IMG/VR virus record: IMGVR_UViG_2563366990_000004
Strand: one strand, 5' to 3'
DNA: 46,456 bases
Source of the DNA: a virus
Lineage: Duplodnaviria > Heunggongvirae > Uroviricota > Caudoviricetes
Shown here: in pieces, positions 750 to 23,479 of the stretch
How positions within the stretch are numbered: the first letter of the stretch is position 1
Layout of the letters: every line of letters begins with the position of its first letter
Notes under the pieces: generated by a model
The model's input: the letters and a program-made list of their open reading frames with translations, nothing else
Told to the model about the DNA's origin: nothing
Databases searched by the model: none
Made by a program: the position numbers and the translations under genes

Positions 750-1769
750 CTACTTGCTAACCACGAGCGGCAGATCCAGTGTTGGTGTGATTTTTGTTTT
801 ACGATCGTAAATCAACACCTGATTTTCTGTTTTATGCCCGCTGAAAATTTGTTTGTCGCGACTGCTGCCTTCGTAATCAGAGATCCCCTTGGCTTTTATA
901 TCGTGAAAATTGCACCCGAACGGAACGCCAACTTTTTGCTCGGCTGAGCGTTTAGCCTGATTCCACCAGTTGTTCAGCGTTTTAGCTATGACTTTCCCGC
1001 CTTTGGTTGTATTGATCACATATTCGCATGTACAGGAAGATACATTTCGGGCTAACTGGATCGCTGTACGTAATCGCGGTGACCATTCCTTGATTTGTTT
1101 GGTGCCGGTTTTGTTTTGCTCAATGTAGATCCCTTTATCCATAATATCCTGCCATTTCAACTCAAGCACATCACCGAGCCTTGCCGCACAGAGATAGGAA
1201 ATCTCCATTGCAATGCGTAACTGTGGAATTGCTTCCGCATATATCGCTGCATACTGTTCATCGGTGATGTAAACAGTGCGGGCTTTAAGAGAGAATTTTC
1301 TGACTCCTTTGCATGGGTTATTCTTCACGTATCCACGCTCATATCCCCACCCGTATACTCGACTCAGGCTTGCCAGTTCATGATTTGCCTGGGTCTTGCT
1401 CTCAAGCCCTCGTTTATCCATGAAAATTCTTACCTGCTCAGTTTTGACATTATCAGCAAGCACTTTTCCGAATACCATCAGCAACGCCTTCTGATGTTGT
1501 CGATAATCTTTTTGGGTTCGGGGGGCCAGTTCTGTAAATGCAGGGGAGTCCATAAACATGTGCCATAATTTAGCTACGGTCATTATGTTGTGGAGTTTTG
1601 CTTTTTCCAGTTCATAATTTTGCCAGACTTTAGCTACGCTGGTTTTCCGCACTCTTCCTAGCCCTATAGTTCTTGTACTTCCTTCTGGTTTCCACACGTA
1701 ACTGTAACCATTCGATCTAACCCGCGGTGGCAGTACATTATCTTTTTTATTTTTTCTTGGTCTTCCCAT
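750..1769 (-). CDS. int: Phage integrase, tyrosine recombinase (lambda-Int family)
   Basis: 339-aa ORF next to the att core; N-terminal arm-binding-like region and C-terminal catalytic-type region (…HDIKAKGISDYEGS…HKTENQVLIYDRK) ending in a conserved Tyr context; preceded by an overlapping excisionase gene. Confidence 0.88.
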   Translation of the reverse strand: MGRPRKNKKDNVLPPRVRSNGYSYVWKPEGSTRTIGLGRVRKTSVAKVWQNYELEKAKLHNIMTVAKLWHMFMDSPAFTELAPRTQKDYRQHQKALLMVFGKVLADNVKTEQVRIFMDKRGLESKTQANHELASLSRVYGWGYERGYVKNNPCKGVRKFSLKARTVYITDEQYAAIYAEAIPQLRIAMEISYLCAARLGDVLELKWQDIMDKGIYIEQNKTGTKQIKEWSPRLRTAIQLARNVSSCTCEYVINTTKGGKVIAKTLNNWWNQAKRSAEQKVGVPFGCNFHDIKAKGISDYEGSSRDKQIFSGHKTENQVLIYDRKTKITPTLDLPLVVSK

Positions 1770-1989
1770 TGTTCAGCGCCTCAAAATCGGGTTCAGCAGA
1801 AACCAGTTCAGATGTTTTTGGCATCGTTGTCAGTCCGTGTGGAATATCCCTGCGTAGAACTATTGGTTCGTTTTTAGGACCGATTACAAATGGGATGCCG
1901 TGCAGTCTTAACTGGTGTTGCTGTTTTGTGTATCGCTCGTATTTCGTGATCTCTTTAATCTCTGCTGGAGATAGAGTTAATTCGTACAT
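1747..1989 (-). CDS. xis: Excisionase-like protein (Xis)
   Basis: 80-aa basic ORF immediately upstream of and overlapping int by 23 nt on the same strand, the classic xis-int arrangement. Confidence 0.6.
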   Translation of the reverse strand: MYELTLSPAEIKEITKYERYTKQQHQLRLHGIPFVIGPKNEPIVLRRDIPHGLTTMPKTSELVSAEPDFEALNNGKTKKK

Positions 1990-2056
1990 GTGGTCACGTG
2001 CCTTTACAGCATGACCGCCGCCACTATAGCTGGTGGGCGGCGATATGGGTTGAACA

Positions 2057-4495
2057 TTAAAAATCAGCCTGACTCGGGATCAGTTTTTGCCAGATAGCTG
2101 AAACGTATTTTGCCTGATAACGGGCGTCATCAAGTGCATTATGGCGCTCACCTTCGAATGGAATAGCCGTTCTGGCATCGAAGTCTATGGCTTTCCCCAG
2201 CTCAACGATTGTGCGTACATCGCGATCGTTGTAGTAACGCCACGGGCAGGGGATCCCCTGCCGTTCGTATGAACGGCGCAAAATCGTGTTGTCGAAGTTG
2301 GCTCCATTTCCCCAGACCTGAACAAAAAATTCACCGGAGTTTTCGTCGATAAATTCCCGCAGTTGTAACAGTGCATCATCTAACGGGATTTCATCGGTCA
2401 TAATGGCAGATTGCGCTTCGCGTGATTGCTTAAGCCACCATTTAATGGTGTCCCGATCAATGACTCCGCCAGCAGTTTCCAGATCGATAGTCTTACTAAA
2501 TTCCGGTCCCATATCTCCGGTTTGCGGATCGAAAAATATTGCACCTATTGAGATGATCGGGGCATTAGGATTTTTTCCCATGGTTTCAAGGTCGATCATT
2601 AGATGGTCACACGTCCTGCTGGTGGATGTGATTTCGTGATGACCGTTCACCGCAATTAAGGGATCTGCCGCTTCGCCAGTTTCACTATCGCTGGTGTGAT
2701 GCTGATCGTTACCAGCATTCTCATTGTTCGGATGTTCAGCGCCTTCTATTTCCTCCGGATCATCTTCCTGAACTTCAGCCTGATTTTTTTCATCGAATGT
2801 TTCCTGGTATGTTGCGTCGCCCATCACCGCGCCACAGTCAGGACAGTTGCCGCCACCGCTCTGACCGCAGGCGGTGCAGACTTTTTCCTCTTCCTGTTGC
2901 GCTACTGGTTCGGATTGTTTCGTTTCTGGCTCGTCTTGTAACGCATTTTGGCTGTTTTGTTCTGCTTTCTGGTCGTTCTGTTCCGTTTCTAGCTGGTTCT
3001 GGTTCACAGAATCGCAGGTTTCAATCCCCTTAACCCATTTCGAATCATTCGGGTCGCTAATCCCTTCAACAAACTCACCACGAGAAGCGGCAAGCAATTT
3101 GTCGGCATCTGGTCGACTGATGTCTGCTGCCTCCATAATTTTATTTACTTCTTCAGCGGTAACTTTTACCTGTGACTTGTCATCCAGCGGCTGCGGGTCC
3201 TGATGATGTTCAACTGTATCCGCTGCCATTGTTTCAGCCGTTGCCTGTTCATCTGCCATTGCGCCAGATGGTTGCGGGTTTTCTTCATCATTTTTTTCTT
3301 CTTCTGTTTTGCACTCAGCAGCCAGTCCGTCGTTAATTTCTTCCAGGATATCTTTTTCCGGTGTATGCCGGGCAGCCATGAGCGTTTCAGCTGTGGGATT
3401 CTCGTGATCAGTTTCTGTCAGGTTGGCATTGATATACCCCTGAAGGCGTCCCGGGTAGTGATAAAACTCAGGGTGGGCGCTCCGGATAAGTGCAAAAATA
3501 GCTGCGCGGGAATAGTCCAGGATACCAGGGGTTGCGCGAAGTGCTGCGGACCATTCCCTGAACGGACTTTCTTTTTTCAGGACGATTTCTTTTGCGCGAC
3601 GATAAACGCTCACGGGTATTTCATAAATATTAAAATCCATCGGAAGCGTGGCTGCTGCAGCCTCCACATCCAGAGTATCGAGGGTGTGTACTAAGTCAGG
3701 ATTACGATCGGTTTTATTTCCGCCACCGGCATTTGCACCGGAAGCCGTGCGGGTGATGCGAGAAACACGATTTCCTTTCATCCACTCTTTTGTCAGCAGA
3801 CCTCGATCGGTATAGTCAGCGTCCAGGTATGCTTCGAAAAAAGCAGTCATTAACCCCAGACTGGAATTAACGGGATTAGGGAAAACTTTGTCTGTGTCGC
3901 GTACCAGTTTATGAAGGTCGCGAATCTCCAGCGGGTCGAGCAGCTTTGTGTTGTGGGAAATAGCCAGGGCAGTAACAGCCGGCAGTTCTTCAGCTCGTGC
4001 GATATGTAATGCCTGAAGTTCTTCCCGTGAAACGTGCGTTACCGGTTTTTCGCTGCCATGTTGCGCAAGCCAGCGAATGGGTAGTTCCTGACCGGAAATT
4101 GGCAGGAGCATATTATCCTCAATCTCAGCCATGTCTTCGCCATTGACGTTGGTATTGTCAGTGCTGGCTGGTTTTTCCTGAACTGAGGGGGAAGGCGCTA
4201 TAAATATCATTGTGATGCCATCTTCCCCGCCTTTTTCATAGCGGTTGCAGAATTCAGTATCAAACACGCCTTCCGGTGGAAGGTCATTCACAACGGGGAA
4301 ATGGACGCGGACGGGTTTTTTGAAATCATCAGCGTCGTAGCCTGCCTCGTCCATTGCAACAACGCACCGCGAGATTGCTACAGATAATTTCTTTTCTGTA
4401 CTCCAGTAAAAACCCCCTTTAATCCCAAAGCGTTTTCTGACCTTGTCATTTTTTGCTTCGCAATATAGCGCAAATTCTTCTTTATCAGTGCTCAT
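2057..4495 (-). CDS. Large early-region exonuclease with C-terminal DnaQ-like (DEDDh) 3'-5' exonuclease domain; central acidic low-complexity linker and CxxC…CxxC zinc ribbon
   Basis: 812-aa ORF. C-terminal 180 aa contain IDLETMG … NGANFD … HNALDDA motifs typical of DnaQ/RNase T-like exonucleases. Sits where Rac carries recE; no RecT/Bet-like annealase gene is visible nearby. Confidence 0.7.
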   Translation of the reverse strand: MSTDKEEFALYCEAKNDKVRKRFGIKGGFYWSTEKKLSVAISRCVVAMDEAGYDADDFKKPVRVHFPVVNDLPPEGVFDTEFCNRYEKGGEDGITMIFIAPSPSVQEKPASTDNTNVNGEDMAEIEDNMLLPISGQELPIRWLAQHGSEKPVTHVSREELQALHIARAEELPAVTALAISHNTKLLDPLEIRDLHKLVRDTDKVFPNPVNSSLGLMTAFFEAYLDADYTDRGLLTKEWMKGNRVSRITRTASGANAGGGNKTDRNPDLVHTLDTLDVEAAAATLPMDFNIYEIPVSVYRRAKEIVLKKESPFREWSAALRATPGILDYSRAAIFALIRSAHPEFYHYPGRLQGYINANLTETDHENPTAETLMAARHTPEKDILEEINDGLAAECKTEEEKNDEENPQPSGAMADEQATAETMAADTVEHHQDPQPLDDKSQVKVTAEEVNKIMEAADISRPDADKLLAASRGEFVEGISDPNDSKWVKGIETCDSVNQNQLETEQNDQKAEQNSQNALQDEPETKQSEPVAQQEEEKVCTACGQSGGGNCPDCGAVMGDATYQETFDEKNQAEVQEDDPEEIEGAEHPNNENAGNDQHHTSDSETGEAADPLIAVNGHHEITSTSRTCDHLMIDLETMGKNPNAPIISIGAIFFDPQTGDMGPEFSKTIDLETAGGVIDRDTIKWWLKQSREAQSAIMTDEIPLDDALLQLREFIDENSGEFFVQVWGNGANFDNTILRRSYERQGIPCPWRYYNDRDVRTIVELGKAIDFDARTAIPFEGERHNALDDARYQAKYVSAIWQKLIPSQADF

Positions 4496-4587
4496 TGATA
4501 AACCTCATAACTATTTTAAGGTTGTACGAACCCCTGCCATTGCTGGCATGCTTAATCAACGGGTATGGCGTTAATATGGCTGGTGGA

Positions 4588-4776
4588 TTATCCAGCCGGT
4601 ATTTCGTTATTCAGGTACAGCGATACTTTTTTTAACGGGAGGCATTCGCCAGAAATTTTTTGCTCGTCTCTTGCCCGGAGGCATGATTCTTTACTGGCAT
4701 AAATTCCGGTAATCACATTCTGTGGCTCACCCGTTATAAGAAAAACAGTCATTACCAGTGCAAATGCAGAAGTCAC
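4588..4776 (-). CDS. Hypothetical small early protein with hydrophobic N-terminus
   Basis: 62-aa ORF in the early-left operon, translationally coupled to the upstream ORF (4-nt overlap 4773-4776). Confidence 0.35.
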   Translation of the reverse strand: MTSAFALVMTVFLITGEPQNVITGIYASKESCLRARDEQKISGECLPLKKVSLYLNNEIPAG

Positions 4777-4961
4777 TGCTGCCCCCCGAAAATACCAAGT
4801 TTAAGAAGGGCAATTCTGGAGAGTATGGAATTATCATTGAGAAGATAAGGCTCATATTTTCTCATCTTAATGGCATCTTCAGTAAACTCCCGGTTACTGA
4901 GCAGAACACCAATATCAAAACACCCTTCAGACGTATTAACGTTTGGTAATAACGTTTCCAT
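4773..4961 (-). CDS. Hypothetical small early protein
   Basis: 62-aa ORF, same strand and operon context as the exonuclease; overlapping stop/start with the next ORF. Confidence 0.35.
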   Translation of the reverse strand: METLLPNVNTSEGCFDIGVLLSNREFTEDAIKMRKYEPYLLNDNSILSRIALLKLGIFGGQQ

Positions 4962-5446
4962 TATCGTGTCCTCAACAATGAATTTTGTGATGTGGTGCCT
5001 GGTGCCTCCAGGTGACGTTAACCAGTTAACAATTAACGCCGGAATACAGAAGGATGCCCGTTACGCCCCGTAAAAGACCACTTTACGGATTTAACTGTTC
5101 CGCGTGCGCATAGCCGCATTCACCGCATCACAAAATTCACTTTAAAAAGGATGGCAGAGCAGTCATGGAGTCGAACTGATGCCACCAAAGACTACACATG
5201 GATATTGTGGCGGGGCTGTCACTTAAGCGTATGGTCAGCCTGACAACCCGGTGTCCTCAAGGGGAAGGAATAACCCCGCCATACTTACCGCCGCGCCATT
5301 TCGCGGATTGCCACAACCGGAAGCGCACGGTCGAATTAAATTTAACGACAAAGTACAGAGAGACGAGCTTCTCCGTGCGCTTTCGTGTTATGCCCTGACT
5401 TTTCAGGGTAAATTAACCAGTGGCAACCTGTTTTTACTGGTGCTAA

Positions 5447-5653
5447 TCAGTTAGTGTTTCTGGCTAACCAGCGACGCGCGCCAGCTTCGGTTTTAAACTT
5501 TTTACTTTTGGTATACGTCATCGCGGTAAACGTGCCGTCCTGGTTAGGGAACACACCGCATACCAGAGATTCGTTGTTGCCAAGATTGAGCGTATCCATG
5601 TTGACCTCATTTCCCCTTAACGCCGGGGTAGCGGAACAAAAAACCTGCTGCAT
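5447..5653 (-). CDS. Hypothetical small early-left protein (first leftward gene after the OL-like operator; possible shorter product from internal Met at 5599)
   Basis: 68-aa ORF; position equivalent to the first pL-transcribed gene of lambdoid phages but not Arg-rich N-like. Confidence 0.35.
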   Translation of the reverse strand: MQQVFCSATPALRGNEVNMDTLNLGNNESLVCGVFPNQDGTFTAMTYTKSKKFKTEAGARRWLARNTN

Positions 5654-5764
5654 AGTTAAACGTAATCCCCGCCGTCATGTTCATACGCCTCAGGCTGGCT
5701 ACTTAACCCCTGACCACTGCCGGGTAACTCGAAGTATTGCCCTGCGTTCTGTGGGTCGGGGTGG

Positions 5765-5830
5765 GTGTATGGATACAATTTACAAATTAAAATTTAACTG
5801 GTCAACATGTTTATTATTAAATTTGTAATT
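5765..5830. promoter_or_regulatory. OL-like operator/promoter region with inverted repeat TTACAAAT … ATTTGTAA
   Basis: TTACAAAT at 5780-5787 and ATTTGTAA at 5821-5828 in an AT-rich spacer; the same half-sites recur between the repressor and cro-like genes (7033-7070). Confidence 0.4.
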
Positions 5831-5873
5831 GCGAGCTGTTGCATTAGTCCCAAAATGGGACTACTATACAGTT

Positions 5874-6176
5874 ATGAAGATTATCTCAGTTAAAACACTC
5901 AGGGATTTTTGGGCGGAGAATCCTGATGCAGAACAACCGCTAAGGGCATGGGTGGATGAGGCGGCAAAAGCTGACTGGAAAAGCCCAGCAGACATTAAGG
6001 CACAATACCGAACGGCCAGTATATTGAAAAACCGGCGCGTGGTATTCAACGTAAAAGGTAATCATTACCGTTTAATTGTTGCAATTGCGTATCAGCGAGG
6101 ATGGGTATTTGTTAAATTCATCGGAAACCACAAGGAATACGATGCTATTGATGCTGATACCATCGAACTGGAGTAA
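5874..6176 (+). CDS. higB: HigB-family type II toxin (mRNA interferase)
   Basis: Product MKIISVKTLRDFW…VFNVKGNHYRLIVAIAYQRGWVFVKFIGNHKEYD matches the HigB signature (compare E. coli HigB …VFNVGGNELRVVAMV…HKEYD). Toxin-first order, stop 2 nt before the antitoxin start. The track ORF begins at a TTG (5829); ATG 5874 preferred. Confidence 0.8.
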   Translation: MKIISVKTLRDFWAENPDAEQPLRAWVDEAAKADWKSPADIKAQYRTASILKNRRVVFNVKGNHYRLIVAIAYQRGWVFVKFIGNHKEYDAIDADTIELE

Positions 6177-6178
6177 GC

Positions 6179-6538
6179 ATGAACATCAAACCTATTCGTA
6201 CAGAGCAAGATTATGAAGCCGCGTTGCGTGCTGTTGAACCCATGTTCGACAATGAGCCCGAAATTGACACGCCTGAGGGGGATTTTTTTGAGGTGATGTG
6301 TTTGCTAATAGAGGAATATGAAAAAAAACATTATCCCATTGAGCCACCATCCCCAATTGAAGCTATAAGATTTCGCATGGAACAGCAGGGGCTGACTGTG
6401 AAAGATTTGGAACCCGCAATTGGGAAAAAAAATCGGGTTTATGAGGTGTTGAATGGTACCAGAAGCCTTACGTTACCAATGATTCGCCGTCTTCATAATC
6501 AATTTGGTATCCCCCTGGAAAGCCTGGTTGGATTATAA
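6179..6538 (+). CDS. higA: HigA-family antitoxin (XRE-type HTH)
   Basis: 119 aa; C-terminal HTH LTVKDLEPAIGKKNRVYEVLNGTRSLTLPMIRRLHNQFGIP resembles E. coli HigA (LTLSDLPEIGSKSMVSRVLSGKRKLTLEHAKKLATRFGIS); tightly coupled to higB. Confidence 0.8.
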   Translation: MNIKPIRTEQDYEAALRAVEPMFDNEPEIDTPEGDFFEVMCLLIEEYEKKHYPIEPPSPIEAIRFRMEQQGLTVKDLEPAIGKKNRVYEVLNGTRSLTLPMIRRLHNQFGIPLESLVGL

Positions 6539-6584: not shown

Positions 6585-6983
6585 TCAGGCAGTTTTGTTT
6601 TTCTGCCGCAGTAACTCTTCAAGTTTCCGTTTATAGAAATCGCGTTTTTGCTCCATATCACGAATGATCTGCTCTGCGTCGCTTTGAGGTAACTCATCTA
6701 AAAGCGATATGATTTTTCGTTGTTGTTCTGTAAGTTGCGGTTGGTTGTCATTACTGGATACAGCCATTTTATCGCCGAGAGTTTCTTCTTCCATAAAGAA
6801 CCAATGGACGGGATGTTGTGAGAGCTCTGCTAATTTTTCCAGTTTATCCATTCTTGGCATCACGCCTTTCAACCAACCTTGCACGGATTGGGGTTTTACA
6901 CCAAGACGTCTTCCCAGCTCTGACTGGTTTATATTCAATTCCTGCAACACCTGCTGAAGGCGTTTTACAAAGATCATCACCAC
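6585..6983 (-). CDS. Prophage repressor, XRE-family HTH without peptidase domain (RacR/DicA-like, CI functional analogue)
   Basis: 132 aa, N-terminal HTH (LNINQSELGRRLGVKPQSVQGWLKG); divergently transcribed from a Cro/YdaS-like gene across a 120-bp operator region. Confidence 0.75.
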   Translation of the reverse strand: MVMIFVKRLQQVLQELNINQSELGRRLGVKPQSVQGWLKGVMPRMDKLEKLAELSQHPVHWFFMEEETLGDKMAVSSNDNQPQLTEQQRKIISLLDELPQSDAEQIIRDMEQKRDFYKRKLEELLRQKNKTA

Positions 6984-7364: not shown

Positions 7365-7798
7365 AAATCAAGCATGAGCACATCCGCATGGCGATGAATG
7401 CGTGGCTGCTTTATCCGAGGGTAGGGCGCAAAAAAATCGCTGATGATATAGCGACAGCATATTTTGAGCTTGAAATGACTTATCCACCAATGCATGACAC
7501 CTCTACGACAGAGGGTATTGGATTGAATATACAAAATATTTTTCGCTGGCTTGAAAAGGATACGCCTGATGCTGTTGAAAAAATTCAGGCACTAATTCCG
7601 GCTATCCTGACTGTTCTTCCGCGTGAACTGCGTTATCACCTCAGTATTTTTGACACTGTTGAGCGCCGTGCATTACTGGCGGCGCAGGAAGCGTTGAGCA
7701 CGGCAATTGATGCACATGATGATGCTGTCCAGGCCGTTTACCGGAAAGCGTATTTCAGCGACGGCGGGTCATCCGGCGAGTCTGTTGTGGTGCATTGA
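7361..7798 (+). CDS. YdaT-family protein (CII-like regulator position)
   Basis: 145 aa, overlapping start/stop with the YdaS-like gene; same racR-ydaS-ydaT arrangement as the Rac prophage. Confidence 0.65.
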   Translation: MKIKHEHIRMAMNAWLLYPRVGRKKIADDIATAYFELEMTYPPMHDTSTTEGIGLNIQNIFRWLEKDTPDAVEKIQALIPAILTVLPRELRYHLSIFDTVERRALLAAQEALSTAIDAHDDAVQAVYRKAYFSDGGSSGESVVVH

Positions 7799-7884
7799 TA
7801 TTTATGCCAGCCCCCTGCTGATTCTGTTGATTGGGGAATCACAGAATATCACCAGAGGATGGTTCGTCACAAGATGAGGCAATT

Positions 7885-18570: not shown

Positions 18571-19623
18571 ATGCTTAGTACTGTAAAAATATCCAGTTGT
18601 GAGTTAATCAACGCCGACTGCCTGGAATTTATCCGGTCGTTACCCGAAAATTCTGTTGACCTGATAGTCACGGACCCGCCGTACTTTAAAGTGAAGCCTG
18701 AGGGCTGGGATAACCAGTGGAAGGGCGACGATGATTACCTGAAGTGGCTGGACCAGTGTCTTGCGCAGTTCTGGCGGGTGCTGAAACCTGCCGGAAGTCT
18801 TTACCTGTTCTGTGGCCATCGCCTGGCATCTGACATTGAAATCATGATGCGTGAACGCTTCAGTGTGCTGAACCATATTATCTGGGCGAAGCCGTCCGGA
18901 CGCTGGAACGGGTGCAACAAGGAAAGCCTGAGGGCGTATTTCCCCGCCACAGAGCGCATTCTGTTCGCGGAACATTATCAGGGGCCGTATCGTCCGAAAG
19001 ATGCCGGGTATGAGGCGAAGGGCAGGGCACTGAAACAGCATGTGATGGCCCCGCTGATTGCTTACTTTCGTGATGCACGTGCTGCCCTGGGGATAACGGC
19101 AAAACAGATTGCTGATGCCACAGGAAAGAAAAACATGGTGTCGCACTGGTTCAGTGCCAGTCAGTGGCAGCTACCGGACGAAAGCGATTATCTGAAATTA
19201 CAGGCGCTGTTTGCCCGGGTGGCAGAAGAGAAGCATCAGCGCGGAGAACTGGAAAAGCCACATCACCAACTGGTCAGCACATACAGTGAACTGAACCGAC
19301 AGTATACGGAACTGCAGAGTGAATATAAGCATCTGCGGCGGTATTTCGGTGTGACGGCGCAGGTGCCGTACACCGATGTGTGGACGCATAAACCGGTGCA
19401 GTACTATCCCGGGAAACATCCGTGCGAAAAACCGGCAGAAATGCTGCAGCAGATAATCAGCGCGAGCAGTCGTCCGGGTGACTTGGTTGCAGATTTCTTC
19501 ATGGGGTCGGGCTCAACCGTCAAAGCAGCGCTGGCACTGGGGCGTCGTGCAACTGGTGTTGAGCTGGAGAGTGAACGTTTTTTACAGACAGTGAAGGAGA
19601 TCCGGGACGATTTTTGCAGGTGA
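18571..19623 (+). CDS. Orphan DNA methyltransferase (beta-class amino-MTase: N-terminal DPPY motif, C-terminal FxGxG SAM motif)
   Basis: 350 aa; DLIVTDPPYF near the N-terminus and DLVADFFMGSGSTVKAA near the C-terminus; no restriction endonuclease gene adjacent. Confidence 0.85.
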   Translation: MLSTVKISSCELINADCLEFIRSLPENSVDLIVTDPPYFKVKPEGWDNQWKGDDDYLKWLDQCLAQFWRVLKPAGSLYLFCGHRLASDIEIMMRERFSVLNHIIWAKPSGRWNGCNKESLRAYFPATERILFAEHYQGPYRPKDAGYEAKGRALKQHVMAPLIAYFRDARAALGITAKQIADATGKKNMVSHWFSASQWQLPDESDYLKLQALFARVAEEKHQRGELEKPHHQLVSTYSELNRQYTELQSEYKHLRRYFGVTAQVPYTDVWTHKPVQYYPGKHPCEKPAEMLQQIISASSRPGDLVADFFMGSGSTVKAALALGRRATGVELESERFLQTVKEIRDDFCR

Positions 19624-19711: not shown

Positions 19712-20434
19712 ATGGCAGTTGTCTGTTCTGTAATTCTGGTTTGTTCCCCGATCAATATTTTTATTGAGAAAGACAAACTTTCACTTGTGCCGGGCATGGT
19801 CATTCTGGTCACCAGAAACATCAGGGAGCTTTTTCGCACTTACACAGACCGGGTTAAGGTTGCTGATATAAATCACGATATAGTCAGTCAATATCTGGAA
19901 GGTGGGCGAAGGCGGATGAGCTCCCCACAGGCATGTTTTCCGCATTATCTCACTTCTGGCATTCATCAGCCTGTACTGGCAGAGGCGTTAATTACTAATC
20001 ATGGATTTCCCAGTGCTCCTTCTGGTGATTTGTCCACGATGACAGGGCTTTCATGTCTTTCTCTGTTTGCCAACGATGAGAGCCTGTCATCATTTTTGTC
20101 AAGGTGTTTAAGCAATACAAGCGATAAAGTCAGGGCAATAATTCAGAGCGATATATCCGTAAACTGGAAGCTTGGTGTTATTGCGTTACAACTGCATATG
20201 AGCGAAAGCTTGTTAAAGAAAAAGCTTAAAGATGAAGGAAACAGCTTCAGCCGCCTGTTGCTGGAAGAGAGGATGCGGGGGGCAGTAAATATGTTATGCT
20301 TTCAATATGGACGGGGAGCGATAGTGGCAGAAAAATGCGGTTATTCAAGCCTGTCTTACTTTATATCAGTATTCCACAGGTATTATGGAGTACCTCCTGA
20401 CAAATATGTGTCTCTGCATATGGTTGACTTTTAA
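19712..20434 (+). CDS. AraC/XylS-family transcriptional regulator (cargo gene)
   Basis: 240 aa; C-terminal double-HTH region (…FSRLLLEERMRGAVNML…IVAEKCGYSSLSYFISVFHRYYGVPP); visibly AT-rich relative to flanking phage genes. Confidence 0.75.
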   Translation: MAVVCSVILVCSPINIFIEKDKLSLVPGMVILVTRNIRELFRTYTDRVKVADINHDIVSQYLEGGRRRMSSPQACFPHYLTSGIHQPVLAEALITNHGFPSAPSGDLSTMTGLSCLSLFANDESLSSFLSRCLSNTSDKVRAIIQSDISVNWKLGVIALQLHMSESLLKKKLKDEGNSFSRLLLEERMRGAVNMLCFQYGRGAIVAEKCGYSSLSYFISVFHRYYGVPPDKYVSLHMVDF

Positions 20435-20556: not shown

Positions 20557-20795
20557 CTCACAATTCAGACGGTTGACAGTTGTCTGTTTTGCGGGGAGTT
20601 TGTTAAAAGAAACTGGCATGGTGAATCCCCCTGAGCGGAGGGGCGACTGGTGCATCAGGTGTTATCTTTGATACCCAGGAAAGTGAACGCGCGGGTTCGG
20701 TGGCACCGGGCTGAACTCACCGGGAGGCACCCGGCACTATGCGCATGATGTACAGATACGCGGCTTCAGCCCCTCTCCGGAGGGGCTTTTCTGTG
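20557..20795 (+). repeat. Repeat unit A (~240 bp) ending in an intrinsic terminator
   Basis: Starts CTCACAATTCAGACGGTTGACAGTTGTCTG; internal hairpin CCCCCTGAGCGGAGGGG; shared block GCGGGTTCGGTGGCACCGGGCTGAACTCACCGGGAGGCACCCGGCA; ends CAGCCCCTCTCCGGAGGGGCTTTTCT. Confidence 0.6.
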
Positions 20796-21042
20796 CCTTA
20801 TGCATCACAGTTTCTGGAACCCTGAGTACTACAGTATCAGTCAGGGTGCTATATTTGCAGATGTGATGAAAGCCTGCCGGCAGGCAGGGCGTATCGGAAA
20901 TGACCCAGTAAGAGAAAACGTTGACTCAGATACCGGTGCTGAGTTACCGGGAAACCGGCATCACATGACCGCTATCCTTCATGGCTCTCTCAGGAGAGCC
21001 TTTTTACTGGAGAAAACCGCTTCCCCGTAAAATGCCGTGTTG

Positions 21043-21282
21043 CTCACAATTCAGTCAGTTGAAGGTTGTCTGCCCGACTGAGAATTTGTTAAAAAATTTC
21101 TGCATGATGAATCCCCCTGTGCGGAGGGGCGGCTGGTGTACGGAATGGTCTCTGATGATCGTTAGCGAGAATGACGCGGGTTCGGTGGCACCGGGCTGAA
21201 CTCACCGGGAGGCACCCGGCATCATGTAATGAACGGTACATAGCGCTACTCTTCAGCCCCTCTCCGGAGGGGCTTTCTTATG
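21043..21282 (+). repeat. Repeat unit B (~240 bp), diverged copy of unit A, ending in an intrinsic terminator
   Basis: CTCACAATTCAGTCAGTTGAAGGTTGTCTG…CCCCCTGTGCGGAGGGG…GCGGGTTCGGTGGCACCGGGCTGAACTCACCGGGAGGCACCCGGCA…CAGCCCCTCTCCGGAGGGGCTTTCTT; a further hairpin with minus-strand terminator polarity at 21290-21315. Confidence 0.6.
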
Positions 21283-21511
21283 GATAAAAAAAGCCCGCAT
21301 GGTGAGATGCGGGCAGCAAGGAATAAACAACAAAACGTGAAGTAATCAATTTTTCAGCTGGCGAATAATACCCGACAGTAATCACTCTGCGCAACTGCGC
21401 GGCCTTTTTCGTATTGCGGGCTGTAGTCTTCCTCCTGCCATTGTCCTGTAACTTCCGGACTTCAGCCCGCCCCTCATCTGACTCACAACATTATCCCGAC
21501 CGGGAGGATTC

Positions 21512-23479
21512 ATGGCATTTAAACACTATGACGTGGTCAGGGCGGCGTCGCCGTCAGACCTTGCGGAGCGACTGACTCAAAAACTGAAGGAGGGGTGGCA
21601 GCCATTTGGCAGTCCTGTCGCCATCACGCCTTATACCCTGATGCAGGCCATTGCGGCGGAAGGTGATGTCACCACACCTGTGGTGGTGAAGCCGTCGGAT
21701 GGAGAAGGCACAGTTATCAGCGCCACCAGCGACCCGGAGTATTACTTTGTTGTGGTTCTGGCAGGGCAGTCAAACGGCATGTCGTATGGTGAAGGCCTTC
21801 CGCTGCCGGAGACATATGACCGTCCGGACCCGCGTATTAAGCAGCTGGCGCGCCGAAGTACGGTGACACCGGGAGGTGCCGCCTGTAAGTATAACGACAT
21901 TATTCCGGCGGACCATTGTCTGCATGATGTGCAGGACATGAGCCGTCTTAACCATCCGAAAGCGGACCTGTCAAAGGGGCAGTACGGAACCGTGGGGCAG
22001 GGGCTGCATATCGCCAAAAAACTGCTGCCGTTTATACCGGCGAATGCGGGCATTCTGCTGGTTCCGTGCTGCCGTGGTGCTTCGGCATTCACAACGGGTG
22101 CAGACGGCACATACAGCGAATCAGCCGGTGCATCGGAAAATTCACTGCGCTGGGGTGTGGGTAAGCCGCTGTATCAGGATTTGGTGAGCCGGACTAAAGC
22201 CGCACTGGCGAAGAACCCGAAAAACCGTCTGCTTGCGGTGGTGTGGATGCAGGGAGAAGGTGATGTGGCAGTGGGGACGCATGCGCAGCATTCAGGGCTG
22301 TTTAGTGCGATGGTGAATCAGTTCAGAACGGACCTTGCCGGTCAGGCATCACAGAGCACAGGAGGCAGCGCATCAGCGGTACCGTGGGTTTGCGGGGACA
22401 CAACGTATTTCTGGAAGCAGCGTCATGCGGAAGGGTATGCATCAGTATACGGAGGGTATAAGGGTAAGGAGTCGCAGAACATTTTCTTTGTACCGTTAAT
22501 GACGGATGAGAATGGTGCGAATGTGCAGACCAATGACCCGGCAGAAGACCCGGACCTGGAAGCCGTCGGTTATTACGGTTCAAAGTGGCGTAATGACCAG
22601 AAGACCTGGACATCTGTGGACAGGGCCAGCCATTTCAGTTCATGGGCTCGCCGTGGGATTATTTCCGACCGTCTGGCAACGGCGATTCTGGTGCATGCCG
22701 GGAGAACCGCTGAATTCATTACCGGAAAACAGCCTGATACGGTGAAGCCCACCGGACCTTCCGGTGAAGGCCCGGAGAGAGAGCCGGAAGCCCCGGTCAG
22801 TAACCGAACCCTGATGAGTCTGCTGGCGTCCGGTGAAGACCTGGCATCACAGGGCTGGCGCTATTATCACAAACCGGCGAGCGGAGACAGTGTTGATAAA
22901 AACATCGCTGAGGCTGTGGTCAGTGATGAGGGTGCCACCGGTGGTAAGGCCCTGCAACTGAACAAACCGGAAAGCCACATCTGGTTTCTGGAGCATGATG
23001 CCGCCGGGCAGGGGGCAGAGTTGCTGAAGAAAGGCGGACGTGTGAGCGTGCGGTTTAAGGTGCCGGGCGCACTGGTGCCGAATCAGTTTGCCCTGGGTAT
23101 TTACTGGCAGTTGTCGTCCCTGCCGGAGGGAGTGACGCTGTCAGAGGAAGGCAACGACATGCTGATGTCCTTCTTCCTGCAGACGGATGCGACGAACCTG
23201 AACGCGATGTACCACAAGAAGCAGAATGCGAAGCTGGATACGTTCGGGGTCTTTGATAACGGATGGCACACACTGGCTTTTGAGTTTGCCGGAAACAACA
23301 GCATTCAGGTGACGCCGGTACTGGATGAGAAACGGGGTACACCGTTCACACTGGTGAAATCTCCGGCATCAGGGGCGGCGGACAAACTGCAACTGACAGG
23401 CATATCAAAGGCGGCGACATATACGCTGCTGATTGACAGTGTGAAGGTGGAAGTGAACAACGCGGATGCCGCGGCATGA
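21512..23479 (+). CDS. nanS-p: NanS-p-type sialate O-acetylesterase (N-terminal DUF1737, SASA/SGNH esterase core)
   Basis: 655 aa; N-terminus MAFKHYDVVRAASPSDLAERLTQKLKEGWQPFG (DUF1737-like) and esterase motif VVLAGQSNGMSYG; sits between Q and the lysis genes as nanS-p does in Stx and related lambdoid phages. Confidence 0.75.
   Translation: MAFKHYDVVRAASPSDLAERLTQKLKEGWQPFGSPVAITPYTLMQAIAAEGDVTTPVVVKPSDGEGTVISATSDPEYYFVVVLAGQSNGMSYGEGLPLPETYDRPDPRIKQLARRSTVTPGGAACKYNDIIPADHCLHDVQDMSRLNHPKADLSKGQYGTVGQGLHIAKKLLPFIPANAGILLVPCCRGASAFTTGADGTYSESAGASENSLRWGVGKPLYQDLVSRTKAALAKNPKNRLLAVVWMQGEGDVAVGTHAQHSGLFSAMVNQFRTDLAGQASQSTGGSASAVPWVCGDTTYFWKQRHAEGYASVYGGYKGKESQNIFFVPLMTDENGANVQTNDPAEDPDLEAVGYYGSKWRNDQKTWTSVDRASHFSSWARRGIISDRLATAILVHAGRTAEFITGKQPDTVKPTGPSGEGPEREPEAPVSNRTLMSLLASGEDLASQGWRYYHKPASGDSVDKNIAEAVVSDEGATGGKALQLNKPESHIWFLEHDAAGQGAELLKKGGRVSVRFKVPGALVPNQFALGIYWQLSSLPEGVTLSEEGNDMLMSFFLQTDATNLNAMYHKKQNAKLDTFGVFDNGWHTLAFEFAGNNSIQVTPVLDEKRGTPFTLVKSPASGAADKLQLTGISKAATYTLLIDSVKVEVNNADAAA

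What the first reader, a model, noticed from the sequence alone, without database searches (positions are those of the whole stretch)
2057..4961. Early-left operon has a DnaQ-type exonuclease without an obvious annealase partner
At the position where Rac encodes RecE/RecT and lambda Exo/Bet, this prophage has an 812-aa protein whose recognisable catalytic domain is DEDDh (DnaQ-like), not PD-(D/E)XK. I see no RecT/Bet/Erf-like gene. The two coupled small ORFs upstream are unassigned.
Basis: partly seen in the sequence, partly recalled or inferred. Interest (0 to 1): 0.4.

Follow-up and report, generated by a model that had tools for sequence, protein, structure and literature searches.

The report
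RecE-like protein with swapped 3'-5' nuclease
This E. coli prophage carries a very common but untested relative of the recombination nuclease RecE, in which the usual 5'-3' nuclease is replaced by a T4 DexA-like 3'-5' exonuclease, and the phage has no strand-annealing partner and probably relies on the host RecBCD/Chi pathway.

Summary
Window 2057-4495 (-) encodes an intact 812-aa protein with a C-terminal DEDDh domain, and no annealase or RecBCD inhibitor is detectable anywhere in the window.

- Residues 50-615 are the RecE N-terminal region (56% identical to Rac RecE 42-592). Homology stops just before RecE's PD-(D/E)XK nuclease, so this is a RecE with a swapped nuclease.
- The two 62-aa ORFs are DicB and a YdfD-like (DUF1482) protein. 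With DicF and a YdfA-like gene they form a Qin-type dicBF operon.

The nuclease domain's closest solved relative is T4 DexA, a 3'-5' DNA exonuclease.

The lack of an annealase is systematic. None of 84 related fusion loci, and none of five divergent lineages, has one. All six RecE-type loci examined have RecT immediately downstream.

The prophage fits the published "no Rec module, high Chi" lambdoid class. It has 15 Chi sites where 2 are expected, 12 of them in the active orientation.

The family is abundant and already annotated in E. coli, but I found no experimental work on it. The biological role I propose, trimming 3' ends for host RecBCD/RecA recombination, is inference.

Verdict: a new variant of a known kind, of moderate interest.

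The parts
2057..4495 (-). 812-aa RecE-N::DEDDh exonuclease gene, the last early-left gene before xis and int
   Evidence: ORF. Pfam PF06630 + PF16473. PHROG 607/2082. NCBIfam NF007259 matched over model positions 1-603 only, score 887, below the cutoff of 1269. E. coli proteins identical over aa 1-615, the part searched. dN/dS is 0.13 in the N-module and 0.155 in the DEDDh domain.
3356..4495 (-). Folded N-module, aa 1-380: an alpha/beta domain (1-100) plus helical domains (120-380), shared with RecE
2621..3355 (-). Acidic, mostly disordered linker, aa 381-625, also shared with RecE. Contains the conserved LAASRGEFVxGISDPND motif and a CxxC...CxxC motif.
   Evidence: pLDDT below 50 for aa 380-462, 492-538 and 554-625. 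RecE homology runs to aa 615. dN/dS 0.37.
2834..2878 (-). CxxC-x7-CxxC zinc-ribbon-like motif (C540, C543, C551, C554) inside the linker
   Evidence: Read from the sequence. Conserved in Rac RecE. Weak Pfam DZR hit, E 0.037. Low model confidence.
2057..2620 (-). DexA/Rv2179c-like DEDDh 3'-5' exonuclease domain, aa 626-812. Catalytic residues D635, E637, D735, H785, D790.
   Evidence: Pfam PF16473, 5e-68. PDB sequence hit to 8KEL, 1.2e-6. Foldseek to 8KEL, 1.8e-8. Alignment with DexA and an EcD-like protein.
2618..2625 (+). Chi octamer at codons 624-626, exactly at the linker/nuclease junction
   Evidence: Present at the junction in 83 of 84 fusion loci. Absent from Rac recE and from distant members.
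2029..2036 (+). Chi octamer in the xis-exo intergenic region
4579..4586 (+). Chi octamer in the gap between the DUF1482 gene and exo
4588..4776 (-). YdfD-like DUF1482 small protein (62 aa)
   Evidence: Pfam PF07358, 6.6e-16. 48% identity to K-12 Qin YdfD, annotated 'lysis protein'. PHROG 1092.
4773..4961 (-). DicB cell-division inhibitor (62 aa). Its stop codon overlaps the DUF1482 start codon.
   Evidence: Pfam PF05358, 1.4e-36. NCBIfam NF049927, 111 bits, above the cutoff of 100. 61% identity to K-12 DicB.
5149..5200 (-). DicF small RNA
   Evidence: Rfam RF00039, 48.9 bits against a gathering score of 48. Same order as in the Qin dicBF operon.
5447..5653 (-). YdfA-like DUF1391 gene, the first gene of the early-left operon
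   Evidence: Pfam PF07151, 3.9e-29. Same position as ydfA in Qin.
1747..1989 (-). Excisionase (DUF4224)
   Evidence: Pfam PF13986. PHROG 1266, excisionase.
750..1769 (-). Tyrosine integrase
   Evidence: Pfam PF00589. PHROG integrase families.
6585..6983 (-). cI-like repressor, marking the immunity region. The early-left operon lies to its left, beyond a HigBA insert.
   Evidence: ORF. Annotated as a helix-turn-helix protein in the syntenic E. coli prophage.
16803..17177 (+). RusA Holliday-junction resolvase in the nin region. Context only: the phage resolves junctions but encodes no strand-pairing protein.
   Evidence: Pfam PF05866, 1.9e-16.

Best explanation
The gene encodes a three-part protein. 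It has the folded N-terminal module of RecE (aa 1-380), the RecE-type acidic disordered linker with a small zinc-ribbon-like motif (aa 381-625), and a T4 DexA/Rv2179c-like DEDDh 3'-5' exonuclease domain (aa 626-812) in place of RecE's PD-(D/E)XK 5'-3' nuclease.

It is the last gene of a Qin-type early-left operon (ydfA-like, DicF, DicB, YdfD-like, exo, xis, int). It should therefore be made when the prophage is derepressed.

It works without any phage annealase. The prophage belongs to the Chi-rich lambdoid class that has no Rec module and is proposed to obtain recombination-dependent replication from host RecBCD and RecA.

Proposed role (inferred): the N-module brings the nuclease to phage DNA ends, as it presumably does for RecE. 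The DEDDh domain then trims 3' single-stranded tails. This yields blunt or near-blunt ends on which RecBCD can load and run to the correctly oriented Chi sites. RecA pairs the strands and phage RusA resolves the junctions.

Shown here: the domain identities, intact catalytic residues, purifying selection, the absence of an annealase, Chi enrichment, and a strict link between nuclease type and the presence or absence of RecT.

Inferred: DNA rather than RNA as substrate, 3'-5' polarity in this particular protein, end targeting by the N-module, and cooperation with RecBCD.
For: Identity of the parts:
- Pfam PF06630 + PF16473.
- NCBIfam RecE model matched only over positions 1-603 of 877.
- BLASTP to Rac RecE: aa 50-615 align with RecE 42-592 at 56% identity, and nothing aligns after that.
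- AF2 shows a folded N-module, a disordered linker and a folded DEDDh domain.
- The best solved relative is T4 DexA, by sequence and by fold. DexA and the E. coli homologue EcD are 3'-5' DNA exonucleases (PMC12153337).
- The catalytic D-E-D-H-D set is conserved in the window protein and in 9 of 10 divergent fusions.

The gene is functional:
- dN/dS is 0.13 for the N-module and 0.155 for the DEDDh domain.

No annealase:
- None in the window.
- 0 of 84 fusion loci carry RecT, Bet, Erf, Sak4, Gam, Abc2 or lambda Exo within up to 10 kb.
- Five divergent fusion lineages are each followed directly by xis and/or int. On the three long contigs the whole stretch from cI to int shows no annealase; the other two contigs are only 2.7-4.6 kb.
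- Another lambdoid prophage record, deposited as phage vB_EcoS-640R1 (a partial genome with host flanks), has the same module and no recombinase annotated in the 50 kb examined.
- In contrast, all six PD-(D/E)XK-type loci have RecT immediately downstream.

The N-module is an independent unit tied to end-processing nucleases:
- It occurs alone directly upstream of Gam, a RecT-family gene and a YqaJ nuclease.
- It occurs as a separate gene two genes downstream of a stand-alone Rv2179c-like exonuclease.
- Of 79 representatives of 450 aa or more, 14 are DEDDh fusions, 20 are PD-(D/E)XK fusions and 45 have no detectable nuclease domain.

Reliance on host recombination:
- 15 Chi sites against 2.0 expected, 12 of them on the + strand. 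Chi is the most frequent octamer when strands are combined. All 15 lie between 2029 and 27141, and none lies in the structural genes.
- This meets the published criteria for the class, at least 8 active-orientation and at most 6 inactive-orientation sites (PMC12315714).
- The 80 related viral loci carry 326 active-orientation against 85 inactive-orientation Chi sites. The lambda, P22 and HK620 early-left regions have none.
- RusA is present.

From my own knowledge, not checked here: E. coli genetics (work I attribute to Thoms & Wackernagel and to Dermic) indicates that RecBCD needs blunt or nearly blunt ends and that host 3'-5' single-strand exonucleases blunt them.
Against: No biochemical or genetic data exist for this protein.

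DnaQ-type 3'-5' exonucleases usually inhibit homologous recombination, because they destroy the invasive 3' tail. PMC12315714 says this explicitly.

That paper does not count DnaQ-type genes lying next to int as recombination genes. It also notes that no gene of unknown function is universal in the early-left regions of phages without a Rec module, so the exonuclease cannot be essential to that lifestyle.

Pfam names the domain after a mycobacterial exoribonuclease, and NCBI annotation often calls these proteins 3'-5' exoribonucleases. The next-best structural matches are RNase T and oligoribonuclease. RNA therefore cannot be excluded as the substrate.

The function of the N-module is unknown even in RecE (PMC11611040). 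Its predicted fold has no solved relative.

The 84 loci are closely related E. coli prophages and are not independent samples. The annealase references covered four families plus the Pfam and PHROG models, so a wholly novel annealase would be missed.
Confidence: 0.4

Rival explanations
1. Nuclease for defence or competition between phages, like HREX. As with the stand-alone E. coli DexA homologue EcD, the DEDDh domain would selectively degrade modified (for example 5hmC) or otherwise foreign DNA. This would protect the lysogen or the induced cell from T-even-like phages, with the N-module targeting incoming DNA ends.
For: The closest characterised relatives are T4 DexA and EcD. Plasmid-borne EcD degrades T4 DNA, spares unmodified dsDNA and protects against T4 (PMC12153337). 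An EcD-like 189-aa protein, recovered here using the published primer, is 37% identical to window aa 633-805, E 1e-35. The same operon encodes DicB, reported to protect E. coli from phages (PMC6832061, title and abstract listed; paper not read). A PD-Lambda-2-like HigBA pair lies next to the operon.
Against: DexA W152, needed for 5hmC recognition, is Y755 here and varies among the fusions (Y, V, W, R, H). The position aligned to D169 is Ala, although the alignment is unreliable there. The residue aligned to DexA D90 is Asp here, whereas EcD has Ala. The gene sits in the repressed early-left operon with no convincing promoter of its own. It has no PADLOC match. The hypothesis does not explain fusion to the RecE N-module or the strict inverse relation with RecT.
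Confidence: 0.2
2. Recombination by end-annealing without an annealase. The 3'-5' exonuclease would resect dsDNA ends to give 5' overhangs that anneal spontaneously or with host help. This resembles XthA-dependent in vivo cloning. The RecE N-module would confer the linear-linear recombination ability known for full-length RecE.
For: The N-terminal region of RecE enhances linear-linear recombination (PMC11611040, citing Fu et al. 2012). The same N-module and linker are kept here under purifying selection. The N-module also partners a separately encoded Rv2179c-like exonuclease in another element. From my own knowledge: the 3'-5' exonuclease XthA drives in vivo assembly of linear DNA in E. coli.
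Against: In RecE the linear-linear activity was measured together with RecT. No annealase is present here. Chi enrichment suggests the phage relies on RecBCD instead. DexA-type enzymes are not known to be processive dsDNA resection enzymes.
Confidence: 0.1
3. RNA-directed function. The domain would act as a 3'-5' exoribonuclease, as many database names say. It could trim or degrade host or phage RNAs, for example the 3' ends of transcripts from the dicBF operon.
For: The Pfam family is named after the M. tuberculosis exoribonuclease Rv2179c. Structural neighbours include RNase T, Orn and REXO2. The gene lies in an operon whose small RNA, DicF, is cut out of a longer transcript (from my own knowledge).
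Against: The best sequence and structure match is the DNA exonuclease DexA. The partner module comes from a DNA recombination nuclease and elsewhere sits beside Gam-Bet-Exo. Distant fusions occur in operons that have no DicF or DicB.
Confidence: 0.1
4. The protein still works as half of a two-component recombinase, with an annealase supplied in trans by another prophage in the same cell (for example Rac RecT or a Red-type Bet).
For: E. coli genomes hold many lambdoid prophages. The query region matched a median of 4 places per genome and up to 13. The linker shared with RecE could carry a partner-binding site.
Against: Known exonuclease-annealase pairs are encoded next to each other and are specific to each other (PMC11611040). 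The exonuclease has the opposite polarity. None of the 84 loci plus five divergent lineages has an adjacent annealase. The phage genome is Chi-rich, as expected when no phage recombinase or RecBCD inhibitor is in use.
Confidence: 0.07
5. A decaying, non-functional remnant of recE created by an accidental recombination.
For: Many E. coli prophages are defective. One divergent representative (P0138) has lost two catalytic residues.
Against: The 812-aa ORF is intact and the same length in most of the 120 listed homologues. dN/dS is 0.13-0.16 in both folded domains. The architecture has diversified: 14 clusters at the 50% identity level, with C-terminal domains 52-98% identical to the window's. 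It recurs in different prophage backgrounds and genera.
Confidence: 0.03

Closest known systems
Rac prophage RecE (exonuclease VIII) with RecT
   Same: The N-terminal module and the acidic linker are the same: aa 50-615 are 56% identical to RecE 42-592, with long near-identical blocks and the same CxxC...CxxC motif. [quoted passage not shown]
   Different: The C-terminal nuclease is DEDDh (predicted 3'-5') instead of PD-(D/E)XK (5'-3'). No recT follows the gene. The RecE equivalog model scores 887, below its cutoff of 1269. The first 50 residues differ from RecE.
T4 DexA and the E. coli stand-alone homologue EcD (HREX; PMC12153337; PDB 8KEL/8KEN)
   Same: Same DEDDh fold and the same catalytic residues. 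DexA is the best match in the PDB by sequence (E 1.2e-6) and by structure (Foldseek E 1.8e-8). The EcD-like protein is 37% identical.
   Different: DexA and EcD are single-domain proteins of 189-227 aa, whereas here the domain is the C-terminus of an 812-aa RecE-like protein. The Trp that recognises 5hmC is Tyr here. The genomic context also differs: EcD lies in another prophage type, next to a Dam-like methylase.
[quoted passage not shown] 2025, PMC12315714; Bobay et al. 2013 as cited there)
   Same: Lambdoid layout with no annealase and no RecBCD inhibitor. There are 12 Chi sites in the active orientation and 3 in the other. Chi is the commonest octamer, and the sites are concentrated towards the right end of the virion map. 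That paper notes DnaQ-type nuclease genes close to int.
   Different: LLS itself has other early-left genes. In the text I could read, the paper does not describe the DnaQ-type nuclease as a RecE N-module fusion, and it excludes such genes from the recombination functions. Its supplementary tables were not available to me.
Qin cryptic prophage dicBF operon of E. coli K-12 (ydfA-ydfB-ydfC-dicF-dicB-ydfD-ydfE-intQ)
   Same: Same order: DUF1391 gene, DicF, DicB, then a DUF1482 (YdfD) gene with the same 4-nt overlap between dicB and ydfD. A large gene and the integrase follow.
   Different: The large gene in K-12 (the ydfE pseudogene, cut by IS2) is not homologous to the window protein. Here that position holds the intact RecE-N::DEDDh gene.
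Lambda Red (Exo-Bet-Gam) preceded by a free RecE N-module protein (locus L128)
   Same: The same N-module family (PF06630) at the same place in the early-left operon.
   Different: In L128 the N-module has no nuclease domain of its own. It is followed by Gam, a RecT-family annealase and a YqaJ 5'-3' exonuclease. The window has none of these three.

Membership tests
RecE / exodeoxyribonuclease VIII (NCBIfam NF007259 equivalog) | N-terminal Exonuc_VIII region (Pfam PF06630) and linker homologous to Rac RecE | tested here: met
   PF06630, E 2.6e-35. BLASTP 56% identity over aa 50-615.
RecE / exodeoxyribonuclease VIII (NCBIfam NF007259 equivalog) | C-terminal PD-(D/E)XK 5'-3' nuclease domain (RecE about 600-866; Pfam PF12684 in homologues) | tested here: not met
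   No similarity beyond RecE residue 592. The model matched only positions 1-603 of 877. There is no PF12684 hit.
RecE / exodeoxyribonuclease VIII (NCBIfam NF007259 equivalog) | Whole-protein score above the curated cutoff | tested here: not met
   886.8 bits against a cutoff of 1269.
Two-component phage recombinase (5'-3' exonuclease plus adjacent single-strand annealing protein: Red, RecET) | An adjacent annealase gene (RecT, Bet, Erf, Rad52 or Sak4 family) | tested here: not met
   None in the window. 0 of 84 related loci. 0 of 5 divergent lineages.
Two-component phage recombinase (5'-3' exonuclease plus adjacent single-strand annealing protein: Red, RecET) | A PD-(D/E)XK or YqaJ-type 5'-3' dsDNA exonuclease | tested here: not met
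   No match to the lambda Exo or RecE nuclease domains in six frames.
DEDDh (DnaQ-like) 3'-5' exonucleases, Rv2179c-like/DexA subfamily (Pfam PF16473) | Profile match above the gathering score | tested here: met
   228.6 bits against a cutoff of 27, covering profile positions 2-177 of 177.
DEDDh (DnaQ-like) 3'-5' exonucleases, Rv2179c-like/DexA subfamily (Pfam PF16473) | Catalytic Asp-Glu-Asp-His-Asp residues | tested here: met
   D635, E637, D735, H785 and D790 align with DexA D7, E9, D119, H186 and D191.
DEDDh (DnaQ-like) 3'-5' exonucleases, Rv2179c-like/DexA subfamily (Pfam PF16473) | RNase H-like DnaQ fold | tested here: met
   In the AF2 model most 10-residue blocks of aa 628-805 have pLDDT about 80-93, with a dip to 55-76 around aa 670-700. 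Foldseek best hits are DexA 8KEL, RNase T and Orn.
DEDDh (DnaQ-like) 3'-5' exonucleases, Rv2179c-like/DexA subfamily (Pfam PF16473) | 3'-5' exonuclease activity and substrate (DNA or RNA) | not testable with these tools
   Needs an enzyme assay.
HREX (5hmC-recognising DexA/EcD exonucleases; PMC12153337) | Trp equivalent to DexA W152, and an acidic residue equivalent to D169, for 5hmC recognition | tested here: not met
   W152 aligns with Y755. The position varies among the fusions. The D169 column shows Ala, but the alignment is unreliable there, so that part is inconclusive.
HREX (5hmC-recognising DexA/EcD exonucleases; PMC12153337) | Loss of the DexA tetramer residue D90, as in the defensive EcD form | tested here: not met
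   The aligned residue is Asp in the window protein and Ala in the EcD-like protein.
HREX (5hmC-recognising DexA/EcD exonucleases; PMC12153337) | Selective degradation of modified phage DNA and protection from T4 | not testable with these tools
   Needs nuclease and plaque assays.
[quoted passage not shown] | No annealase, SSB, nuclease module or RecBCD inhibitor of the recognised Rec-module types | tested here: met
   The only nuclease is the DnaQ-type gene next to int, which that paper does not count.
[quoted passage not shown] | At least 8 Chi sites in the active orientation and at most 6 in the inactive one | tested here: met
   12 on the + strand and 3 on the - strand, against 2.0 expected in total. 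The + strand is the strand of rightward and late transcription. Equating it with the active orientation is my inference from the lambda map.
[quoted passage not shown] | Growth enhanced by host RecBCD | not testable with these tools
   Needs plating on recBCD mutants.
Qin-type dicBF operon | DicF small RNA, DicB and YdfD in that order downstream of a ydfA-like gene | tested here: met
   Rfam DicF 48.9 bits against a gathering score of 48. DicB and DUF1482. DUF1391. K-12 map.

The most novel reading that the evidence does not exclude
The RecE N-terminal module would be a portable platform for targeting DNA ends or a host factor, which phages arm with nucleases of either polarity. The DEDDh-armed form would then define a third strategy, needing no annealase: the phage nuclease prepares DNA ends for host RecBCD-Chi-RecA recombination. 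This contrasts with replacing the host pathway (Red, RecET) or doing nothing. The Chi octamer kept exactly at the linker/nuclease junction in 83 of 84 loci would mark the hotspot through which nuclease domains are exchanged.
Probability: 0.2. Interest if true: 0.6.

Novelty: new variant of a known kind. Interest (0 to 1): 0.4.

Why it matters
RecE's N-terminal 600 residues are a long-standing blank, described as "of unknown function" in the 2023 review PMC11611040. This work shows that region behaving as an independent unit under purifying selection. It occurs fused to a 5'-3' nuclease (always with RecT alongside), free beside Gam-Bet-Exo, free beside a stand-alone DexA-like exonuclease, or fused to that exonuclease (never with an annealase). 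That pattern gives a concrete handle on what the module does.

The practical relevance is modest. The protein is present in a large share of E. coli prophages, including those of pathogenic strains, and is inconsistently annotated as exodeoxyribonuclease VIII, exonuclease or 3'-5' exoribonuclease. RecE variants are also of interest for recombineering and direct cloning.

Tried and rejected
1. Homology of the large protein to K-12 Qin YdfE, suggested by synteny: BLASTP found none.

2. A hidden annealase or RecBCD inhibitor in unassigned ORFs of the early-right region (12644-13087, 13087-13788, 14787-15245, 14348-14701 and others). Pfam and PHROG gave only families of unknown function, and six-frame tblastn was negative.

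4. An own promoter for the exonuclease gene. The consensus scan found fewer promoter-like sites than in shuffled sequence, and only a weak 9-of-12 match upstream of the gene.

5. Membership of a known defence system. PADLOC gave no hit for the exonuclease, DicB, DUF1482 or DUF1391 proteins.

6. Whether the tested EcD protein is simply a fragment of this 812-aa family. It is not. Using the published forward primer I recovered a stand-alone 189-aa ORF (Ala at residue 78, matching C-terminus). It is only 37% identical and lies in a different prophage type.

7. The first homologue search returned only near-identical E. coli proteins and gave no view of architectural diversity. The search of 50%-identity representatives was needed for that.

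8. The GTDB genome scan gave only 10 loci. The viral-contig scan supplied the other 80.

9. The supplementary tables of PMC12315714, which might list this gene type phage by phage, are not held.

Full report
**1. The observation.** The 812-aa ORF is at 2057-4495 (-), and the two 62-aa ORFs are at 4588-4776 (-) and 4773-4961 (-). The small ORFs overlap by four bases. A 92-nt gap separates them from the large gene. Downstream on the same strand lie an excisionase (1747-1989) and a tyrosine integrase (750-1769). Upstream lie a DicF small RNA (5149-5200, Rfam) and a DUF1391 gene (5447-5653). Next come an oppositely oriented HigB/HigA pair (5829-6538) and a cI-like repressor (6585-6983). Cro-like, YdaT, DUF1376/DnaT and P-like replication genes follow. 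This is the early-left arm of a lambdoid prophage, and the large gene occupies the place that recE has in Rac.

**2. Identity of the large protein.** Pfam finds two domains: Exonuc_VIII (PF06630, aa 51-189, E 2.6e-35) and Rv2179c-like (PF16473, aa 631-802, E 5e-68).
- The NCBIfam equivalog model for exodeoxyribonuclease VIII matches aa 1-615 to model positions 1-603 of 877. Its score of 887 is below the cutoff of 1269.
- BLASTP against Rac RecE aligns aa 50-615 with RecE 42-592 at 56% identity, with long nearly identical blocks. Nothing aligns after that point, which is where RecE's PD-(D/E)XK nuclease begins.
- The protein is therefore a RecE whose nuclease has been exchanged. It is not homologous to K-12 YdfE, the pseudogene at the same position in Qin.

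**3. Predicted structure.** An AF2 model of aa 1-400, built on a 75-sequence alignment of diverse homologues, is confident (mean pLDDT 91.3). It shows an alpha/beta domain (aa 1-100) followed by helical domains.
- The full-length model shows a folded N-module (aa 1-380) and an acidic linker of about 245 residues with pLDDT mostly below 50. The linker contains a CxxC-x7-CxxC motif. A folded DEDDh domain follows (aa 628-805).
- By fold, the nearest solved structure is T4 DexA (8KEL, Foldseek E 1.8e-8), followed by RNase T and oligoribonucleases.
- DexA is also the only PDB hit by sequence.
- The catalytic residues D635, E637, D735, H785 and D790 align with DexA D7, E9, D119, H186 and D191.

**4. 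The two small ORFs.** ORF 4773-4961 is DicB (Pfam 1.4e-36; NCBIfam above its cutoff; 61% identical to K-12 DicB). ORF 4588-4776 is a DUF1482 protein, 48% identical to K-12 YdfD, which is annotated as a lysis protein. With DicF and the DUF1391 (ydfA-like) gene, the operon matches the Qin dicBF operon. Neither small ORF resembles an annealase.

**5. Is an annealase really absent?**
- Pfam and PHROG scans of about 40 ORFs across the early-left, early-right and nin regions found replication, Ead/Ea22, DUF968/HNH, RusA, Q, methylase, AraC-type, NanS-like esterase, lysis and terminase genes. They found no RecT, Bet, Erf, Rad52, Sak4, Gam or Abc2 family.
- Six-frame tblastn with Rac RecT, lambda Bet/Exo/Gam, P22 Erf/Abc1/Abc2/Arf and HK620 Sak4/SSB gave no hit better than E 0.1. 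Only the RecE N-terminal region matched.

**6. Is the absence systematic?** I collected 90 related loci with up to 10 kb on each side: 10 from species-representative genomes and 80 from viral contigs.
- Of the 84 loci that carry the DEDDh fusion, none has a RecT, Bet, Erf, Sak4, Gam, Abc2 or lambda Exo homologue.
- 79 of the 84 have DicB and the DUF1482 gene immediately upstream at fixed spacing, although their integrases and repressors differ.
- All four Rac-type loci have recT directly downstream.
- These loci are close relatives, so I also sampled divergent lineages from a search of 50%-identity cluster representatives. That search gave 260 hits at E 1e-3 or better.
- Of the 79 representatives of 450 aa or more, 14 have the DEDDh domain and 20 have the RecE-type nuclease. 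The other 45 have no nuclease domain detectable by BLAST. Pfam finds only PF06630 in 43 of those 45 scanned.

**7. Gene neighbourhoods in the divergent lineages.**
- Five divergent DEDDh fusions are each followed directly by xis and/or int. On the three long contigs a short operon (Rrf2-like genes) precedes them and no annealase is present anywhere between cI and int; the fourth has KilR upstream. That contig and the fifth are only 4.6 and 2.7 kb.
- Two divergent PD-(D/E)XK fusions are each followed by a RecT-family gene.
- One protein with the N-module only is followed by Gam, a RecT-family gene and a YqaJ exonuclease, which together form a complete Red-like set.
- Another is followed by a Gp157-family gene.
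- A third lies two genes downstream of a stand-alone 193-aa Rv2179c-like exonuclease that is 38% identical to the window's C-terminal domain. The two parts are fused in one lineage and separate neighbours in another, which argues that the N-module and the DexA-like nuclease work together.
- A prophage record deposited as phage vB_EcoS-640R1 (ON470612, a partial genome with host flanks) has the same int-xis-exo-YdfD-DicB module plus RusA. No recombinase is annotated in the 50 kb examined.

**8. Is the gene functional?** Pairwise dN/dS against 19 homologues is 0.13 for the N-module, 0.37 for the linker and 0.155 for the DEDDh domain.
- Divergence is discordant along the gene. In L026 the N-module has dS 0.04 and the nuclease 0.9. 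In L090 the pattern is reversed. The gene is therefore itself mosaic, with exchange between module and nuclease.
- A Chi octamer lies exactly at the junction (codons 624-626, window 2618-2625) in 83 of 84 fusion loci. It is absent from Rac recE and from distant members.

**9. Recombination strategy of the prophage.** The window has 15 Chi sites where 2.0 are expected by chance.
- Twelve are on the strand of rightward and late transcription.
- Chi is the most frequent octamer when both strands are combined.
- All 15 sites lie between 2029 and 27141, about one per 1.8 kb. None lies in the structural genes at 28-46 kb.
- Zheng et al. [quoted passage not shown] Those phages have at least 8 Chi sites in the active orientation and at most 6 in the other, concentrated towards the right end. 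The authors propose that they use host RecBCD for recombination-dependent replication, and they credit Bobay et al. 2013 with the earlier statistical observation.
- The same paper notes DnaQ-like nucleases in some Rec modules, and sporadic DnaQ-type genes next to int that it does not count as Rec genes. It also notes "RecE-2" proteins without a nuclease domain.
- The 80 related viral loci carry 326 Chi sites in the active orientation against 85 in the other. The lambda, P22 and HK620 early-left regions have none.
- The phage encodes RusA. That fits junctions being made by host RecA and resolved by the phage.

**10. What is known about the nuclease type.** Kang et al. 2025 (PMC12153337) solved T4 DexA. 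They showed that a stand-alone E. coli homologue, EcD, degrades 5hmC-containing T4 DNA, spares unmodified dsDNA and protects cells from T4. They named the strategy HREX.
- Using their forward primer I recovered an EcD-like 189-aa ORF with Ala at residue 78 and a matching 3' end.
- It is 37% identical to the window domain and sits in a different prophage type.
- DexA W152, the residue that recognises 5hmC, is Tyr755 here and varies among the fusions. The residue aligned to the tetramer residue D90 is retained as Asp.
- The window protein is therefore a relative of HREX enzymes but does not meet that family's proposed specificity features.
- PADLOC has no model that matches it.

**11. Interpretation.**
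- Firmly supported: this is a RecE N-module and linker fused to a DexA-like DEDDh exonuclease. The gene is intact and under selection, and it is expressed from a dicBF-type early-left operon.
- Well supported: it acts without a phage annealase, in a phage that has the genomic signature of dependence on RecBCD and Chi.
- Inferred, about 0.3-0.4: the N-module targets DNA ends and the nuclease trims 3' tails so that RecBCD can load.
- Rivals, in order: an HREX-like discriminating or defensive nuclease, annealase-free end-annealing recombination, an RNase role, a partner supplied in trans, and a dead remnant.
- The main counter-argument to the favoured role is that 3'-5' exonucleases usually antagonise recombination, and that not all phages without a Rec module carry this gene.

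**12. Novelty.** The protein family is abundant. The query region matched somewhere in all 5426 complete E. coli genomes. The Pfam architecture is precomputed in the databases, and the lack of an annealase in such prophages is published at the class level. In the literature I could search I did not find three things described:
- the RecE N-module::DEDDh architecture as such;
- the strict coupling of nuclease type to the presence of RecT;
- the several states of the N-module (fused to either nuclease, or free).

I rate it a new variant of a known kind, of moderate interest.

Noticed in passing
window 2618-2625 (+); also L009-L098: A Chi octamer lies exactly at the boundary between the RecE-type linker and the DEDDh domain (codons 624-626, peptide TSTS). 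It is there in 83 of 84 fusion loci, but not in Rac recE or in distant fusions (L125, L127). Two more Chi sites flank the gene, at 2029 and 4579. It could be a coding coincidence that spread by descent, or a recombination hotspot for domain exchange.
   Followed up: partly
window 2057-4495 compared with L026, L090 and others: The gene is itself mosaic. Synonymous divergence of the N-module and of the nuclease domain is discordant between loci (for example dS 0.04 against 0.9, and 0.54 against 0.025). This implies repeated recombination within the gene.
   Followed up: partly
window 5829-6176 (+) and 6179-6538 (+): A HigB/HigA-like pair is inserted between the repressor and the early-left operon. 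It matches PADLOC PD-Lambda-2_A (5e-40). It also matches the first 119 of 402 positions of PD-Lambda-2_B (1.7e-42). So it is either a plain toxin-antitoxin pair or a truncated defence system.
   Followed up: no
window 13916-14088 (+): Rfam match to the sok antitoxin RNA (110.8 bits), indicating a hok/sok-type module in the early-right region.
   Followed up: no
window 20587-20796 (+) and 21073-21285 (+): Two tandem copies of the small RNA family STnc100 (142 and 165 bits) lie just upstream of a 655-aa NanS-like esterase gene (21512-23479; DUF1737 + SASA + DUF6645). A DNA methylase (18571-19623) and an AraC-type regulator (19712-20434) precede them.
   Followed up: no
L119 4465-5445 (-), L122 5187-6167 (-): In the prophages that carry the EcD-like stand-alone exonuclease, a Dam-like methylase two genes downstream ends in a segment about 60% identical to the zinc-ribbon part of the RecE linker (RecE 517-548). 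This short motif appears to move between proteins.
   Followed up: no
L012 and L013, 10001-13133: An E. coli locus and a Shigella locus have a 474-aa protein made of the RecE N-module only (65% identical to window aa 1-472). A lambda Gam homologue (81% identity) follows about 1.2 kb downstream. No nuclease or annealase hit was found nearby.
   Followed up: partly
P0138 (752-aa cluster representative): One divergent RecE-N::DEDDh fusion has Lys and Ala at two catalytic positions (the equivalents of E9 and D119 in DexA). It is probably an inactive nuclease that has been kept for another reason, or is decaying.
   Followed up: no
L125, L126, L127, L131 (about 7500-7860 or 5533-5859): In other genera the DEDDh fusion is preceded not by DicB and YdfD but by a conserved protein of about 110 aa with an Rrf2-like Pfam hit. 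The whole early-left operon there has only three or four genes.
   Followed up: no
P0124 (703 aa) and P0255 (615 aa): Two cluster representatives join a RecE N-module directly to RecT-like sequence. P0124 residues 520-703 are 97% identical to Rac RecT. These are probably deletion or frameshift fusions, or assembly artefacts.
   Followed up: no
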